NCBI GenBank assembly: GCA_965652925.1
Contig: CBFGXL010000001.1
Coordinates: forward strand, 23,821-87,820
DNA: 64,000 nucleotides
Direction: 5' to 3'
From: an uncultured bacterium
Lineage (GTDB): Bacteria > Patescibacteriota > Minisyncoccia > Phycocordibacterales > UBA918
Within the stretch, counting starts at the first letter, position 1. Each line of letters starts with the position of its first letter. Under the pieces are notes generated by a model that saw only the letters and a program-made list of their open reading frames with translations, did not search any database and was not told the DNA's origin. Below are positions 61,781 through 64,000 of this stretch, piece after piece. The translations under genes and the position numbers were made by a program.

Positions 61781-61823
61781 GTAGATAACTATACCAAGTA
61801 TTTTTGATATAATGGCCATATTC

Positions 61824-64000
61824 ATGTCCCCAAACCCAATCGAGTCAGAATTCATCCACTTACACGTGCACTCGCATTATTCCCTTCTTAATGCCATCCC
61901 CACACCCAAGGAACTGGCTGCGGCAGCGAAAAATGACAATCAGCAGGCACTTGCACTTACTGACGCAGGGGCGCTGTATGGCATCATCGACTTCTACAAA
62001 GCTTGTGCAAAGGAGGAGATCAAACCGATTATTGGTCTCGACGCTTTTGTCTCACCACGCACACGTTTCGATAAAGAACCAATAGACAAACCCCGTTCGC
62101 GTCTGGTGTTACTTGCAGAGAATGAAAAAGGCTACAAGAACCTTATCAAGATGGTGACGCAATCCAATATTGAAGGTTTTTATTACCGGCCGCGCATTGA
62201 CCATGAATTATTGCAGCGCCATGCTGAAGGGCTCTTTTGCATCATTCCCTCATTTGCCGGTGATACAAGCCAGCATTTAAAAAACAATGACTTTGAAAAA
62301 GCTGAGGCTGATGCCGCATGGTACAAAAGCCTCTTCGGTGAGAAATGTTATTTGGAGATTACACATCACCCAGAGATGATCGGGCACCAGGAACTGCAGG
62401 AAAAGATACAGACACTCAGTACCAAAGCGAGTATTCCGCTTGTTGCTGCACATGATGTGTATTATCTGAGCAAAGATGACGCAACCGCGCGTGAAGTGAT
62501 GATCAAGATCCAAAATGGAGGCACGGTGGACCCGCACGAAGAGCGAGCCGAGGATTTTTCATTTATCACACAAGCACAGGCAAAAGACTACTTTAAAGAT
62601 GTGCCAGAGGCCCTTCAGAATACAGTAAAGATCGCAGAAGAGTGCTATGTCGATATTCCTATTGGAACTAAATGGTACTTCCCTAACTACATCATTGAAA
62701 GCGGAAAAGAACCAGATGAGGAACTTAAGGAACGCGCTTATAAAGGCGTCACTTGGCGTGGTCACGACATCACTGATGCGGAAATAAAAAAGCGCCTCGA
62801 TTACGAACTTGAGGTCATCAAAAACAAAGGATATGCGAAATACTTTCTTGTGGTGAGTGATCTTCTGCGCGAAGCACGTGAACGGAAGATCCTCACTACT
62901 ATCCGCGGTTCGGTTGCGGGTTCATATGCTACATATGTGCTGGGGATCACCAACGTAGACCCACTTGAATATAAGCTGCCATTTGAACGCTTCCTCAATC
63001 CCGAGCGTCCCTCAGCGCCCGATGTTGACATGGACTACGCCGACAATCGCCGCGACGAGATCATCGAATACGCAAAACAAAAATACGGCGAAGATAAAGT
63101 TGCGCAGATCGGCACGTTTGGAACTATGATGGCACGCGCTGCTGTGCGCGACGTTGCTCGCGCGCTTGGGCATCCCTACTCTGTGGGCGACCGCATTGCA
63201 AAGCTCATCCCTATGGGAAGCCAGGGGTTTCCTATGACCATCAAACGAGCGCTTGAGATCGAACCAGAGCTGAAGAAGCTGTACAAGCAAGACAGCGAAT
63301 CACGTGACGTGCTCGACCTTGCTCAGAAGATCGAAGGGCGCGCGCGTCACGTAGGCGTACATGCAGCAGGAGTGGTGATCGCTCCAGAGCCCTTGGATCA
63401 GTTCGTACCGATCCAGCTCGATACCAAAACCGGCAAATACATAACACAGTACGAGATGCGTTCAGTGGGAGAAGACGGGGTCGGTCTTTTGAAATTCGAC
63501 TTTCTTGGGATCAAGAACCTCTCCATTCTCGCTGATGCAGTCAAGCGAGTGAAGGCAATACGAGACATTGAGGTCGATATCGAGGACATTCCTCTGGATG
63601 ATCCGAAGACCTTCAAAATGCTCGCAGCTGGAGAGACCATGGGCCTCTTTCAGCTTAATGGCTCAGGCATGACTGCATTCTTGAAGCAGCTGCAGCCATC
63701 ATCAATCCACGACATCAACGCAATGGTGGCACTTTATCGCCCTGGCCCAATGGAATCCATTCCGCAGTATATTGAGCGAAAGCACAACGCCAACCTCATT
63801 ACCTACCTTGATCCGCGCCTGGAAAAAATCCTTGACCGTTCTTATGGAGTAATCACCTACCAGGATGATGTGATGATGATCTCGATTGAGCTTGCGGGAT
63901 ACTCGTGGCTCGATGCCGATAAGCTCCGTAAAGCAATGGGAAAGAAAATCCCTGAGGTTATGGAAGCTGAGAAAGAAAAGCTCATGAAAGGCTTTCTTGA
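61824..64000 (+). CDS. dnaE: DNA polymerase III alpha subunit (DnaE), N-terminal PHP domain onward; partial, continues beyond the window
   Basis: Manual translation from ATG 61824: MSPNPIESEFIHLHVHSHYSLLNAIPTPKELAAAAKNDNQQALALTDAGALYGIIDFYKA... (PHP-domain HxH). The frame stays open to the window end. TATAAT at 61808-61813 suggests a leaderless start. Confidence 0.85.
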   Translation, partial: MSPNPIESEFIHLHVHSHYSLLNAIPTPKELAAAAKNDNQQALALTDAGALYGIIDFYKACAKEEIKPIIGLDAFVSPRTRFDKEPIDKPRSRLVLLAENEKGYKNLIKMVTQSNIEGFYYRPRIDHELLQRHAEGLFCIIPSFAGDTSQHLKNNDFEKAEADAAWYKSLFGEKCYLEITHHPEMIGHQELQEKIQTLSTKASIPLVAAHDVYYLSKDDATAREVMIKIQNGGTVDPHEERAEDFSFITQAQAKDYFKDVPEALQNTVKIAEECYVDIPIGTKWYFPNYIIESGKEPDEELKERAYKGVTWRGHDITDAEIKKRLDYELEVIKNKGYAKYFLVVSDLLREARERKILTTIRGSVAGSYATYVLGITNVDPLEYKLPFERFLNPERPSAPDVDMDYADNRRDEIIEYAKQKYGEDKVAQIGTFGTMMARAAVRDVARALGHPYSVGDRIAKLIPMGSQGFPMTIKRALEIEPELKKLYKQDSESRDVLDLAQKIEGRARHVGVHAAGVVIAPEPLDQFVPIQLDTKTGKYITQYEMRSVGEDGVGLLKFDFLGIKNLSILADAVKRVKAIRDIEVDIEDIPLDDPKTFKMLAAGETMGLFQLNGSGMTAFLKQLQPSSIHDINAMVALYRPGPMESIPQYIERKHNANLITYLDPRLEKILDRSYGVITYQDDVMMISIELAGYSWLDADKLRKAMGKKIPEVMEAEKEKLMKGFL

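What the first reader, a model, noticed from the sequence alone, without database searches (positions are those of the whole stretch)
61781..61830. Pervasive leaderless-style starts: -10 hexamers directly abutting start codons, including back-to-back divergent rnhB/dnaE promoters
TATAGT lies 7 nt before the rnhB ATG and TATAAT 10 nt before the dnaE ATG, inside a 44-nt divergent spacer. The same pattern recurs at hisS (TTGCAG-17-TACAAT, 6 nt), lnt (TATAAT, 7 nt), the META-domain gene (TATAAT, 6 nt), rpmG, dnaG (TAAAAT, 9 nt), the ATL gene (11704-11720) and the response regulator. Other genes use near-perfect AGGAGGTG SDs (1941-1948, 9908-9914, 29531-29536). This implies a dual initiation regime, with many mRNAs leaderless.
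Basis: seen in the sequence. Interest (0 to 1): 0.5.

Follow-up and report, generated by a model that had tools for sequence, protein, structure and literature searches.

The report
Promoters abutting start codons: leaderless genes
In this small-genome candidate-phylum bacterium (Kaiserbacteria-like), about four in ten genes have a promoter -10 box only 6-10 bases before the start codon. Their mRNAs should therefore have almost no leader and be translated without a ribosome-binding site, which is a known strategy in other phyla but is not described for this group in the papers I could search.

Summary
TGgTATAGT lies 7 nt before the rnhB ATG (61780, minus strand). TGaTATAAT lies 10 nt before the dnaE ATG (61824). 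The divergent spacer between the two ATGs is 43 nt, not 44.

A start-calling rule that ignores upstream sequence gives 27 of 61 ORFs with TANNNT 5-12 nt before the ATG, against 9% of other ATGs (p = 2e-12). The same pipeline gives 9% in E. coli.

The hexamers behave as promoter -10 elements rather than ribosome-binding sites:
- TGn extended -10 is enriched 4-5-fold.
- The base before the predicted start is usually a pyrimidine.
- 96% of the adjacent start codons are ATG.
- The motif is depleted at genes that overlap the gene upstream.
- It avoids Shine-Dalgarno (SD) motifs.

In 80 related metagenomic loci, 70 of 76 dnaE orthologues keep a TATACT/TATAAT hexamer before the ATG, at 9-10 nt in 52. 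rnhB orthologues keep one in 47 of 59. In some relatives the two start codons are only 14-21 nt apart and share one -10 region.

SD-led starts are a real minority (10-14%). A third class has neither signal.

The closest named homologues are Candidatus Kaiserbacteria and Nomurabacteria (CPR, the candidate phyla radiation). This is the known "TA-led / GeneMarkS-2 group C" pattern in a new lineage. No transcription-start data exist, so leaderless transcription and translation are inferred.

The parts
61788..61796 (-). Extended -10 element TGgTATAGT of the rnhB promoter, 7 nt before the rnhB ATG
   Evidence: Sequence read. 47/59 rnhB orthologues have TANNNT 4-13 nt upstream of the start; the commonest spacer is 6, and 26 carry TGn.
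61172..61780 (-). rnhB (RNase HII, 202 aa); the A of the ATG at 61780 is the predicted transcription start
   Evidence: NCBIfam NF000595, residue 4 aligned to profile position 3. A 202-aa gene call appears on contigs L007-L012. Orthologue N-termini read MKWIVGID, matching MKKWLIGVDE here.
61805..61813 (+). Extended -10 element TGaTATAAT of the dnaE promoter, 10 nt before the dnaE ATG
   Evidence: 70/76 dnaE orthologues have TANNNT 4-13 nt upstream (spacer 9-10 in 52); 57 of these 70 carry TGn.
61820..61820 (+). Predicted dnaE transcription start: an A at the 7th nt after the -10, preceded by T, giving a 4-nt leader AUUC
   Evidence: Inference. In 63 distinct orthologous upstream sequences the 7th nt after the hexamer is A in 53 and the 6th is C or T in 47.
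61824..64000 (+). dnaE (DNA polymerase III alpha), N-terminal 725 codons; the gene runs off the window
   Evidence: NCBIfam, residue 8 aligned to profile position 3. Gene calls start here in all contigs.
60801..60829 (-). rpmF (L32) promoter TTGCCA-17-TGcTATAGT, 10 nt before ATG 60790
   Evidence: Best hit of the two-hexamer scan, 10/12 with TG. Coordinates verified. TGnTATAGT-9/10-ATG is conserved in the Kaiserbacteria and Nomurabacteria contigs L098 and L099. In the L32 family 28/41 members have the motif.
29713..29750 (+). hisS promoter TTGCAG-17-TACAAT, then 6 nt, then ATG 29748
   Evidence: hisS HMM residue 11 aligns to profile position 3.
7271..7288 (-). TGcTATAAT, then 6 nt, then ATG 7273 of the META/NlpE-like lipoprotein gene
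42293..42310 (-). TAAAAT, then 9 nt, then ATG 42295 of dnaG
   Evidence: dnaG HMM residue 3 aligns to profile position 4.
40485..40502 (-). TATAGT, then 9 nt, then ATG 40487 of rpoD (primary sigma factor)
39174..40487 (-). rpoD: sigma-70 with regions 1.1-4 and conserved -10 and TG-recognition residues ([22 protein letters not shown])
   Evidence: Pfam domains and the translated sequence. The role assigned to the H and E residues comes from my knowledge of E. coli sigma-70 H455/E458.
11704..11723 (+). TATAGT, then 11 nt, then ATG 11721 of the ATL/Ogt-like gene
2328..2344 (+). TAATAT, then 8 nt, then ATG 2342 of the OmpR-type response regulator
1866..1881 (-). TATAAT, then 7 nt, then ATG 1868 of the SDR oxidoreductase gene
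1070..1089 (-). TGgTATACT, then 8 nt, then ATG 1072 (Cys-rich secreted protein)
58561..58579 (-). TGcTACCAT, then 7 nt, then ATG 58563 (pilin-like protein, 162 aa)
   Evidence: In the pilin family 36/42 members have the motif, modal spacer 6.
58023..58041 (-). TGaTATTAT, then 7 nt, then ATG 58025 (pilin-like protein, 273 aa)
52196..52237 (-). rpsP (S16) promoter TTGACT-16-TGaTACAGT, then 11 nt, then ATG 52198
51204..51248 (-). Terminator-like hairpin (51219-51248), immediately followed by TGtTAGCAT, then 6 nt, then ATG 51206 (NADAR gene)
32366..32380 (-). TACAAT, then 6 nt, then ATG 32368 (uppP/bacA)
23869..23883 (-). TACACT, then 6 nt, then ATG 23871 (class I fructose-bisphosphate aldolase)
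25444..25473 (.). Second tight divergent pair. TGtTAAACT-7-ATG 25446 (ABC ATPase, minus strand) overlaps by 2 nt with TAACAT-7-ATG 25471 (PrmC-like methyltransferase, plus strand; alternative start 25462).
13180..13196 (-). TATACT, then 8 nt, then ATG 13182 (DNA-alkylation-repair-like protein)
28445..28459 (-). TATAAT, then 6 nt, then ATG 28447 (lnt). The start is uncertain; an upstream ATG at 28519 is possible.
1938..1952 (+). SD-led start: AGGAGGTG, then 4 nt, then ATG 1950 (hypothetical protein, 93 aa)
2964..2978 (+). SD-led, operon-internal start: AAGGAG, then 6 nt, then TTG 2976 (histidine kinase; overlaps the 3' end of the response-regulator gene). The start is inferred.
29096..29108 (-). 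SD-led start: GGAGG, then 5 nt, then ATG 29098 (putative lipoprotein)

Best explanation
**Organism.** The window comes from a compact (about 97% coding), 47% GC genome of a CPR/Patescibacteria bacterium of the Parcubacteria group, closest to Candidatus Kaiserbacteria.

**Transcription.** The organism's primary sigma-70-type holoenzyme uses promoters that consist mainly of a -10 hexamer (TAtaaT/TATACT). The hexamer often carries the extended TGn motif, and the -35 is weak or absent. For roughly 40% of all genes, and for most first genes of transcription units, this -10 sits 6-10 nt upstream of the ATG.
- With a 6-8 nt spacer, transcription should start at the A of the ATG. rnhB, hisS, the META gene, the pilin genes and uppP are examples.
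- With a 9-11 nt spacer, it should start 2-5 nt upstream. dnaE, rpmF, dnaG and rpoD are examples, typically giving 5'-ACU-AUG.

**Translation.** Such mRNAs cannot carry a Shine-Dalgarno (SD) sequence. They are presumably translated by the leaderless pathway, in which a ribosome loads directly on a 5'-terminal or near-terminal AUG.
- A minority of genes (10-14%) use canonical SD sites 5-8 nt upstream.
- Others are coupled to the preceding gene through overlapping stop and start codons, or have leaders with no SD.

**The rnhB/dnaE spacer.** Its 43 bp hold two opposed extended -10 promoters whose hexamers lie 14 bp apart. The two polymerase footprints must therefore overlap. In relatives the same pair collapses to 14-21 bp with a single shared, near-palindromic -10.

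**Shown versus inferred.**
- Shown: the motifs, spacings, statistics, conservation and sigma-factor determinants.
- Inferred: the transcription start positions and the translation mode.
For: 1. **Blind enrichment and positional peak.** 27/61 ORFs against 9.2% of other ATGs, p = 2e-12. In 699 ORFs of relatives the counts at spacers 6-10 are 83, 52, 43, 81 and 31, against about 9 expected each. E. coli control: TA-led 9%, SD 49%. Window: 42% and 10%.
2. **Promoter features, not RBS features.**
   - TGn precedes 28-35% of the hexamers against 6.5% background (p = 2e-10).
   - Of 101 TGNTANNNT sites, 9 abut blind-rule gene starts against 0.39 expected (p = 4e-10).
   - There is a weak T-rich signal where a -35 would start. 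Full TTGCCA-17 and TTGACT-16 promoters occur at rpmF and rpsP.
   - The -1 base is a pyrimidine in 72-81% of TA-led genes against 53% of other genes.
3. **Start codon.** After an extended -10: ATG 171, GTG 4, TTG 3. After an SD: 41, 10, 7 (p = 5e-7).
4. **Exclusivity with SD.** Odds ratio 0.05 at gene starts against 0.26 at background ATGs.
5. **Operon position.** The motif is depleted where the gene overlaps the upstream gene (12-16%). It occurs at 38-60% of divergent genes and of same-strand genes 6-80 nt downstream of their neighbour.
6. **Conservation.**
   - dnaE: 70/76 orthologues have the hexamer and rnhB 47/59; among 63 distinct dnaE upstream sequences, 51 carry TGn and 53 have A at the 7th nt after the hexamer.
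   - The same architecture occurs in NCBI assemblies labelled Kaiserbacteria and Nomurabacteria, which are syntenic with the window.
7. **Sigma factor.** RpoD retains regions 2.4 and 3.0, including RIPVHMVE.
8. **Matches a described class.** The pattern fits TA-led genes with TANNNT about 12 nt upstream of the start counted from the first T (PMC3160421). It also fits GeneMarkS-2 group C, with the Pribnow box 6-8 nt from the starts of first genes in operons (PMC6028130).
Against: - There are no RNA 5'-end data for this organism or its relatives, so start sites are predicted from spacing rules established in other bacteria.
- For spacers of 9-12 nt the mRNA would not be strictly leaderless.
- Some curated starts (lnt, the NUDIX gene, the membrane protein at 39067, the helicase at 36298, truB) were chosen partly because of the motif. 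The curated figure of 34/53 is therefore optimistic; the blind figure is 44%.
- Part of the mutual exclusion of -10 and SD is geometric, because both compete for the same positions.
- The related loci are largely orthologous regions, so their pooled counts are not independent.
- The generic two-hexamer promoter scan is not above shuffles (24 against 19.2 +/- 4.5).
- A few hits are probably coincidental, for example TAAAAT 6 nt before rpoC, only 19 nt after the rpoB stop.
Confidence: 0.8

Rival explanations
1. The A/T-rich hexamers are a non-Shine-Dalgarno ribosome-binding or S1-binding signal on mRNAs that do have leaders. This would resemble the Bacteroidetes-type 'group B' genomes. On this view the hexamers are not promoters.
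For: SD motifs are rare at gene starts here (10%). About half of Parcubacteria 16S sequences were reported to lack the anti-SD motif (PMC9297842). An AT-rich stretch before start codons is common in SD-poor phyla (PMC5397173).
Against: - The motif consensus is TATAAT/TATACT with invariant T1, A2 and T6, plus an upstream TGn and sometimes a -35 at 16-17 nt. None of these has meaning for a ribosome.
- It is depleted at genes that overlap their upstream neighbour. A group B motif, by contrast, precedes all genes (PMC6028130).
- It appears on both strands of 14-43-bp divergent spacers, where no upstream leader can exist without running through the opposite gene.
- A positional SD peak with the canonical AGGAG/GGAGG exists, so the anti-SD is probably functional.
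Confidence: 0.06
2. The -10 elements are genuine promoters, but the annotated ATGs are not the real start codons. Translation would begin at downstream codons, so the mRNAs have ordinary leaders made of what looks like N-terminal coding sequence.
For: - Gene callers disagree on some starts: rnhB 202 or 215 aa, L32 91 or 95 aa, S16 135 or 137 aa.
- Several starts in the window cannot be fixed by homology (lnt, the helicase, the membrane protein).
Against: - Family profiles align from residues 1-11 of the proteins that begin at the -10-proximal ATG: rnhB, dnaE, hisS, dnaG, the response regulator, the SDR, uppP.
- Orthologue N-termini are conserved from that ATG, and the ATG keeps a fixed distance to the -10 while the flanking sequence diverges.
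- 96% of these codons are ATG.
Confidence: 0.05
3. The hexamers are secondary or chance elements. The genes would be transcribed mainly from promoters further upstream, often inside the preceding gene, giving polycistronic or long-leader mRNAs that are translated by an unknown SD-independent mechanism.
For: - The genome is 97% coding with very short intergenic gaps.
- Many same-strand neighbours are less than 80 nt apart.
- Read-through from upstream genes cannot be excluded without RNA data.
- 26-47% of genes have neither signal yet must be translated somehow.
Against: - Chance is excluded by the statistics and the controls.
- Terminator-like hairpins are enriched (32 against 13.6 +/- 3.7), and some sit directly before a -10/ATG unit, as at 51219-51248.
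- Divergent pairs such as rnhB/dnaE leave no room for another promoter.
- Purifying conservation of TGnTATACT at a fixed spacing in 62-88% identical orthologues argues for function.
Confidence: 0.07

Closest known systems
TA-led (leaderless) genes of Zheng et al. 2011, and 'group C' genomes of GeneMarkS-2 (Lomsadze et al. 2018), typified by Deinococcus-Thermus and Actinobacteria
   Same: - A TANNNT Pribnow box is localised 6-10 nt before the start codons of first genes in operons.
- These genes lack an SD, while SD sites are used for other genes in the same genome.
- The fraction here (about 42-44% of genes by a blind rule) falls in the range reported for Deinococcus-Thermus (36-46%, PMC3160421).
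- As in other mid-GC genomes, the middle of the hexamer is informative (TAtaaT).
   Different: - The lineage is a CPR/Parcubacteria (Kaiserbacteria-like) organism. It does not appear in those surveys as far as I could read them, and none of the papers that mention both 'leaderless' and CPR, Patescibacteria or Saccharibacteria concerns leaderless mRNA in these bacteria.
- Extended -10 TGn is frequent.
- A second spacer mode at 9-10 nt predicts 3-4-nt leaders.
- SD use is much lower than in Actinobacteria-type group C genomes.
Experimentally mapped leaderless transcriptomes (Mycobacterium tuberculosis and M. smegmatis, Deinococcus deserti)
   Same: A -10 element directly abuts the start codon, the start codon is strongly restricted, and the first genes of transcription units are the ones affected. 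Those organisms also mix leaderless and SD-led genes (PMC3898074 and PMC4633059 listed; PMC6028130).
   Different: There the 5' ends were measured; here they are predicted. Mycobacteria also use GTG for leaderless starts (from my own knowledge, not checked here), whereas here 96% of starts are ATG.
Bidirectional promoters with shared, near-symmetrical -10 elements (Warman et al. 2021, as summarised in PMC10268837)
   Same: In relatives L063 and L077 the rnhB and dnaE -10 hexamers overlap on opposite strands (TGCTATACTAGCA-like). The predicted starts are 18 bp apart, so that -7T and -11A of each promoter pair with each other. This is exactly the commonest geometry described.
   Different: - In the window itself the two -10 hexamers are separate (14 bp apart) and the predicted starts are about 40 bp apart, outside the 7-25 bp definition.
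- Here both transcripts would be protein-coding and essentially leaderless, whereas many E. coli and Salmonella examples give one non-coding RNA.
Extended -10 (TGn) sigma-70 promoters
   Same: TGnTAnnnT with a weak or absent -35. The sigma region 3.0 residues equivalent to E. coli H455/E458 are present.
   Different: Nothing unusual in the element itself. Only its placement against start codons is unusual.

Membership tests
Leaderless / TA-led genes (GeneMarkS-2 group C type genome) | A -10-like TANNNT motif localised about 6-10 nt upstream of annotated start codons, above background | tested here: met
   42-44% of genes against 9% background and 9% in E. coli; the peak is at spacers 6-10.
Leaderless / TA-led genes (GeneMarkS-2 group C type genome) | The motif is associated with first genes of transcription units, not with operon-internal genes | tested here: met
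   12-16% at genes that overlap or lie within 5 nt of the upstream gene, against 38-60% at divergent genes and genes with 6-80-nt gaps. Operon structure itself is inferred from spacing only.
Leaderless / TA-led genes (GeneMarkS-2 group C type genome) | No Shine-Dalgarno sequence at the same genes, while SD sites serve other genes | tested here: met
   both signals together in 5 genes, -10 only in 333, SD only in 114. The odds ratio is 0.05, against 0.26 from geometry alone. The SD peak lies at 5-8 nt.
Leaderless / TA-led genes (GeneMarkS-2 group C type genome) | Start codon restricted, with AUG strongly preferred at the 5' end | tested here: met
   171 ATG, 4 GTG, 3 TTG after an extended -10, against 41, 10, 7 after an SD (p = 5e-7).
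Leaderless / TA-led genes (GeneMarkS-2 group C type genome) | Mapped mRNA 5' end at, or within 5 nt of, the start codon | not testable with these tools
   No transcriptome data are available. Spacing predicts leaders of 0-5 nt.
Leaderless / TA-led genes (GeneMarkS-2 group C type genome) | Translation of the 5'-terminal AUG without SD/anti-SD pairing | not testable with these tools
   This would need reporter assays, toeprinting or ribosome profiling.
Extended -10 sigma-70 promoters | TG at -15/-14, one base upstream of the -10 hexamer | tested here: met
   9/26 in the window and 25/88 in non-redundant families, against 6.5% background. 51/63 distinct dnaE orthologue upstream sequences carry it. 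Both rnhB and dnaE carry it in the window.
Extended -10 sigma-70 promoters | A housekeeping sigma factor with the region 2.4 and 3.0 recognition determinants | tested here: met
   Pfam regions 1.1-4. [14 protein letters not shown] and RIPVHMVE are present. The assignment of function to these residues rests on my knowledge of E. coli sigma-70.
Bidirectional promoters (divergent starts 7-25 bp apart sharing a -10) | Divergent transcription starts 7-25 bp apart, with reciprocally overlapping -10 positions | tested here: not met
   In the window the hexamers are 61788-61793 and 61808-61813, and the predicted starts (61780 and 61820) are 40 bp apart. The feature is met in silico in relatives L063 and L077, at 18 bp. 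The window pair at 25446/25471 is borderline at 25 bp.
Non-SD RBS genomes (GeneMarkS-2 group B, Bacteroidetes type) | The same non-SD motif upstream of all genes, including operon-internal ones, on mRNAs with leaders | tested here: not met
   The motif is depleted at overlapping genes, carries promoter-specific TGn and -35 features, and occurs in divergent spacers too short for leaders.
CPR / Parcubacteria (Candidatus Kaiserbacteria-like) genome | Closest named homologues and synteny with assemblies of that lineage | tested here: met
   RNase HII homologues at 57-61% identity are named Ca. Kaiserbacteria and Ca. Nomurabacteria. The contig from GCA_019634005.1 has the same gene order as the window at 50-64 kb and 47% GC. 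No rRNA or marker-gene phylogeny was done.

The most novel reading that the evidence does not exclude
Kaiserbacteria/Nomurabacteria-type CPR bacteria may use leaderless or near-leaderless initiation from extended -10 promoters as their main way of expressing the first genes of transcription units. At about 40% or more of all genes, this would match the highest bacterial levels reported.

They may also have evolved minimal divergent expression modules. In these, two essential genes (rnhB and dnaE) are expressed from start codons only 14-43 bp apart, and in some relatives from one shared palindromic -10, with no untranslated regions and no ribosome-binding sites. The trait would go together with the reduced ribosomes, and the reported anti-SD loss, in Parcubacteria.
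Probability: 0.55. Interest if true: 0.5.

Novelty: new member of a known kind. Interest (0 to 1): 0.35.

Why it matters
- **CPR biology.** Candidate-phyla-radiation bacteria have small genomes and stripped-down ribosomes, and very few are cultivated. How they start translation is largely unstudied. A previous survey found that about half of Parcubacteria 16S sequences lack the anti-SD motif (PMC9297842). It did not say what replaces SD-led initiation.
- **A concrete, testable answer.** For one widespread clade, promoters appear to be fused to start codons. This makes transcription and translation initiation signals one and the same for about 40% of genes.
- **Practical use.** The pattern bears on start-codon annotation in CPR metagenome-assembled genomes. 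rnhB, L32 and S16 are called with different starts by different pipelines. It also helps with choosing promoters and expression signals for future genetics.
- **Minimal bidirectional promoters.** The 14-43-bp rnhB/dnaE modules are compact natural examples of bidirectional promoters that would drive two coding, leaderless mRNAs.
- **Limits.** The phenomenon itself is well known from Actinobacteria and Deinococcus-Thermus, so it extends a known class rather than creating a new one.

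Tried and rejected
- **RNA genes.** Rfam (gathering thresholds) and tRNA scans of the window found nothing. There is therefore no riboswitch or leader RNA to contrast with, and no rRNA for taxonomy or the anti-SD.
- **Genome collection scan.** The single genome-contig scan, queried with RNase HII, returned only distant hits at 36-40% identity. The Saccharibacteria MAG L001 has DnaE only 44% identical, lacks the surrounding gene order, and is 31% GC, so it is uninformative.
- **Two-hexamer promoter scan.** The generic -35/-10 scan is not above shuffles (24 against 19.2 +/- 4.5). 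This fits weak -35 elements, so I relied on -10/TGn positional statistics instead.
- **Stop-codon artefact.** My first background comparison had a flaw. The in-frame stop that bounds each ORF inflates TAA/TAG hexamers at spacers 0, 3, 6 and 9. I corrected this with a spurious-ORF control and with TA[CT]NNT only, and the peak remained.
- **Exclusivity control.** Mutual exclusion of the -10 and SD is partly geometric (background odds ratio 0.26). I report it as a five-fold excess rather than at face value.
- **Literature.** The TM7x transcriptome paper (PMID 35975994), the one CPR TSS data set I found cited, is not held in the library. Of the few papers mentioning both 'leaderless' and Saccharibacteria, CPR or Patescibacteria, those whose passages I read used the word only in reference lists or about YchF, and no listed title concerns leaderless mRNA in CPR.
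- **Not pursued.** I did not resolve the region 14.9-16.7 kb, the competing ORFs at 9.9-10.4 kb and 29.2-29.6 kb, or the true start of rpoB.

Full report
**1. The observation**

The sequence at 61781-61830 is as described.
- On the minus strand the rnhB ATG (61780-61778) follows TATCTAC (7 nt) and TATAGT (61788-61793).
- On the plus strand the dnaE ATG (61824) follows GGCCATATTC (10 nt) and TATAAT (61808-61813).
- Both hexamers are preceded by TGn: TGgTATAGT at 61788-61796 (minus strand) and TGaTATAAT at 61805-61813.
- The spacer between the two start codons is 43 nt, not 44.

The two starts are supported by homology. RNase HII residue 4 aligns to profile position 3, and DnaE residue 8 to profile position 3. 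Gene calls on independent metagenome contigs give a 202-aa rnhB with dnaE 43 nt away. Other assemblies of the same organism carry a 215-aa rnhB call that begins 4 nt from dnaE. The extra 13 residues are absent from orthologues, whose N-termini read MKWIVGID.

The other listed cases check out with small corrections:
- hisS: TTGCAG-17-TACAAT-6-ATG (29748).
- META/NlpE-like gene: TGcTATAAT-6-ATG (7273).
- lnt: TATAAT-6-ATG (28447). The spacer is 6 nt, not 7, and the start is uncertain.
- dnaG: TAAAAT-9-ATG (42295).
- ATL: TATAGT-11-ATG (11721).
- Response regulator: TAATAT-8-ATG (2342).
- 'rpmG' is actually L32, i.e. rpmF, with a near-consensus promoter TTGCCA-17-TGcTATAGT-10-ATG (60790).
- The SD examples are real but 1-4 nt off: AGGAGGTG at 1938-1945, GGGGAGG at 9909-9915, and GGAGGG on the minus strand at 29535-29540.

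**2. Is it more than chance?**

I called ORFs greedily and took the first ATG of each, a rule that ignores upstream sequence.
- 27 of 61 ORFs have TANNNT with a 5-12 nt spacer, against 217 of 2360 other ATGs (Fisher p = 2e-12).
- 22 hits fall at spacers 6-9, where about 3 are expected.
- The in-frame stop that bounds an ORF can mimic TA at spacers 0, 3, 6 and 9. I therefore repeated the test using first ATGs of spurious short ORFs as control, and using TA[CT]NNT only. The peak remained.
- The same pipeline on 100 kb of E. coli K-12 (51% GC) gives 9% TA-led and 49% SD. The window gives 42% and 10%.
- Five Verrucomicrobia and Dormibacterota loci give 11% and 18%.

**3. Promoter or ribosome signal?**

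Several independent features point to a sigma-70 -10 element.
- **Extended -10.** TGn precedes 9/26 of the hexamers in the window and 25/88 in non-redundant gene families, against 6.5% of all TANNNT hexamers (p = 2e-5 and 2e-10). Conversely, of 101 TGNTANNNT sites in the window, 9 lie 5-12 nt before a blind-rule gene start, against 0.39 expected (p = 4e-10).
- **Hexamer and -35.** The commonest hexamers are TATACT, TATAAT and TATAGT. There is a weak T-T signal where a -35 would begin.
- **Base before the ATG.** It is a pyrimidine in 72-81% of TA-led genes against 53% of the rest, as expected for a Y(-1)R(+1) start site.
- **Start codon.** Starts next to an extended -10 are ATG in 171 of 178 cases. 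Starts next to AGGAG or GGAGG are ATG in 41 of 58 (p = 5e-7). This matches the known AUG dependence of leaderless translation.
- **Exclusivity with SD.** Both signals occur together in 5 genes, the -10 alone in 333 and SD alone in 114. The odds ratio is 0.05, against 0.26 at background ATGs, so only part of the effect is geometric.
- **Operon position.** The motif is rare where a gene overlaps or touches the upstream gene (12-16%). It is common at divergent genes and at same-strand gaps of 6-80 nt (38-60%).
- **Sigma factor.** The window encodes the primary sigma factor (40487-39174) with regions 1.1-4. It carries the region 2.4 and 3.0 motifs [14 protein letters not shown] and RIPVHMVE. The role of the H and E residues in TG recognition comes from my knowledge of E. 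coli sigma-70.

**4. Relatives**

A metagenome scan with the DnaE N-terminus returned 80 loci with 62-88% DnaE identity, about 1.1 Mb in total. rnhB lies divergently upstream of dnaE in most of them. Start codons were anchored by homology only.
- **dnaE.** 70 of 76 loci have TANNNT 4-13 nt upstream. The hexamer is TATACT in 42 and TATAAT in 16. The spacer is 9-10 nt in 52 and 6-7 nt in 14. TGn is present in 57.
- **Misses.** Five of the six dnaE misses contain an in-frame ATG 21-24 nt further upstream, so they look like mis-picked start codons.
- **Predicted dnaE start.** Among 63 distinct upstream sequences, the 7th nt after the hexamer is A in 53 and the 6th is C or T in 47. This predicts a start 3-4 nt before the AUG, typically 5'-ACU-AUG.
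- **rnhB.** 47 of 59 orthologues have the hexamer, most often at spacer 6, which predicts a start at the A of the AUG.
- **Switching.** Several rnhB orthologues lack the -10 and have SD-like GGAGG, GGGAG or AAGGAGG instead (L062, L036, L065, L069). The same gene therefore switches regime within the clade.
- **Family level.** DnaE, RNase HII, L32 and pilin families mostly carry the motif. NusB-NUDIX and KhpA mostly do not.
- **Pooled ORFs.** Over 699 ORFs of the relatives the same positional peak appears. SD 4-mers peak at 5-8 nt in about 14% of genes.

**5. The divergent spacer**

In the window the two extended -10 elements are back to back, with hexamers 14 bp apart. The predicted starts are 61780 and about 61820. 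Each promoter's upstream region overlies the other's -10 and start codon, so two polymerases cannot occupy both at once (inference).

In relatives the ATG-to-ATG spacer shrinks to 14-21 nt in five loci. In L063 and L077 the sequence (a)TGcTATACTAGCA carries TGnTATACT on one strand and TGcTAGTAT on the other. The predicted starts are 18 bp apart, so -7T and -11A of each promoter pair with each other. This is the commonest geometry of bacterial bidirectional promoters (PMC10268837, summarising Warman et al. 2021).

The window has a second tight divergent pair at 25446/25471 with overlapping hexamers.

**6. How pervasive, and what else is there?**

- **Curated starts.** Of 53 genes, 34 have a -10 within 4-13 nt and 15 of those carry TGn. 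Six have an SD (one of them also has a -10). Fourteen have neither. Some of these starts were chosen with the motif in view, so the blind figure of 42-44% is the safer estimate.
- **SD-led cases.** One is an operon-internal gene, the histidine kinase (AAGGAG-6-TTG 2976). The others are small hypothetical or lipoprotein genes.
- **The 'neither' class.**
  - Stop/start-coupled genes: MPG at 6182, TrmD at 50766, the ABC permease at 24693.
  - Genes whose best -10 lies 30-40 nt upstream with no SD: RNase R, DUF892, the DsbA-like gene.
- **Overall.** The regime is better described as three-way, with leaderless-type starts the largest class.

**7. Organism**

The window is 97% coding and 47% GC, and has no RNA genes. 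Named RNase HII homologues at 57-61% identity are from Candidatus Kaiserbacteria and Candidatus Nomurabacteria, which belong to the Patescibacteria/Parcubacteria group.

A 379-kb contig of GCA_019634005.1 (Kaiserbacteria, 47% GC) has the same gene order as the window at 50-64 kb. The complete 1.09-Mb genome CP060227.1 (Nomurabacteria) shares most of it. Both show TGcTATACT-9-ATG at dnaE and TGnTATAGT-9/10-ATG at rpmF.

**8. Comparison with what is known**

The pattern is what Zheng et al. called TA-led genes: TANNNT about 12 nt upstream counted from the first T. They reported 19% of genes in Actinobacteria and 36-46% in Deinococcus-Thermus (PMC3160421). GeneMarkS-2 calls such genomes group C. 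It found 1028 of 4769 bacterial genomes in that group, mainly from those two phyla (PMC6028130).

What seems new is the lineage.
- The few papers that mention 'leaderless' together with Saccharibacteria, CPR or Patescibacteria do so, where I read the passages, only in reference lists or about YchF, and none is about leaderless mRNA in these bacteria.
- The nearest relevant report is that the anti-SD motif is undetected in about half of Parcubacteria 16S sequences (PMC9297842).
- In this clade a canonical SD peak persists, so the anti-SD is probably retained. No rRNA was available to check this.

**9. Verdict**

- Spacers of 9-11 nt predict very short leaders rather than none.
- Novelty: a new member of a known kind. 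Interest is moderate.

Noticed in passing
window 61780-61819 (minus strand); L093-L095: Public gene calls for the same organism disagree on the rnhB start: 202 aa from ATG 61780, or 215 aa from ATG 61819, which lies 4 nt from the dnaE start. Homology and orthologue N-termini favour 202 aa. The longer call looks like a start-annotation error, which could arise if a gene caller does not model leaderless starts.
   Followed up: partly
Two in-frame ATGs are each preceded by a -10-like hexamer: TATAGT-10-ATG 60790 and TATGGT-7-ATG 60778. Gene callers pick 60778 (91 aa). Comparison with B. subtilis L32 (recalled from memory) and the conserved MV(N/I)RMRHTR N-terminus suggest 60790.
   Followed up: partly
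window 49229-49295 (minus strand): Upstream of rpoB a -10-like CATAAT ends only 2 nt before ATG 49265, with CTGCCA 16 nt upstream. That would place the transcription start inside the ORF. An alternative GTG at 49229 has GAGGAG 9 nt upstream. The true rpoB start and promoter are unresolved. A terminator-like hairpin lies just upstream at 49311-49325.
   Followed up: no
window 39174-40487 (minus strand), first ~80 codons: The primary sigma factor carries a lysine/alanine-rich N-terminal tail of about 80 residues ([25 protein letters not shown]...), ahead of region 1.1. It resembles histone-H1-like DNA-binding tails. It might add non-specific DNA contacts at promoters with weak -35 elements, but that is speculation.
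   Followed up: no
window 59513-60415 (minus strand); L098, L099: NusB is fused to a C-terminal NUDIX hydrolase domain in a 301-aa protein. The fusion is conserved in the relatives (a 44-member family) and in the Kaiserbacteria and Nomurabacteria assemblies.
   Followed up: no
window 25444-25473: The ABC ATPase (ATG 25446, minus strand) and a PrmC-like methyltransferase (ATG 25462 or 25471, plus strand) start only 15-24 nt apart. Their -10-like hexamers lie on opposite strands and overlap by 2 nt (AGTTTAACAT). This looks like a second minimal divergent promoter.
   Followed up: partly
window 14900-16700: About 1.8 kb contains only ORFs without Pfam hits, on both strands (14931-15503, 15606-16046, and 16121-16639 on the minus strand). 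truB appears to start at 16703 rather than at the 5' end of its long ORF (16334). The coding content here is unresolved.
   Followed up: no
window 9863-10375 and 29160-29612: Two places have competing ORFs on opposite strands or in different frames: 9920-10375 (plus) against 10357-9866 (minus), and 29530-29261 against 29591-29163. None has a family hit.
   Followed up: no
window 49000-64000: Terminator-like hairpins are enriched (32 against 13.6 +/- 3.7 in shuffles). The hairpin at 51219-51248 reads as a terminator on both strands and overlaps the TGt (51219-51221) of the NADAR gene's extended -10, which shows how tightly transcription units are packed.
   Followed up: partly
whole window: Perfect AGGAGG occurs 41 times: 8 on the plus strand and 33 on the minus strand, where most genes lie. 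Nearly all are inside coding sequence, and only one sits at a plausible start (1938). Internal SD-like hexamers therefore do not seem to be avoided, which fits weak reliance on SD pairing.
   Followed up: no
L094 5029-9996: One ENA assembly of the same organism calls a 1655-aa DnaE with duplicated polymerase domains, where the others call 1072 aa. This is probably an assembly artefact or a duplication.
   Followed up: no
window 52326-52363: RNase R appears to have a leader: TATAGT lies about 38 nt upstream of ATG 52364. The predicted leader contains CUCCUC, which resembles the anti-SD rather than an SD. Its meaning is unknown.
   Followed up: no
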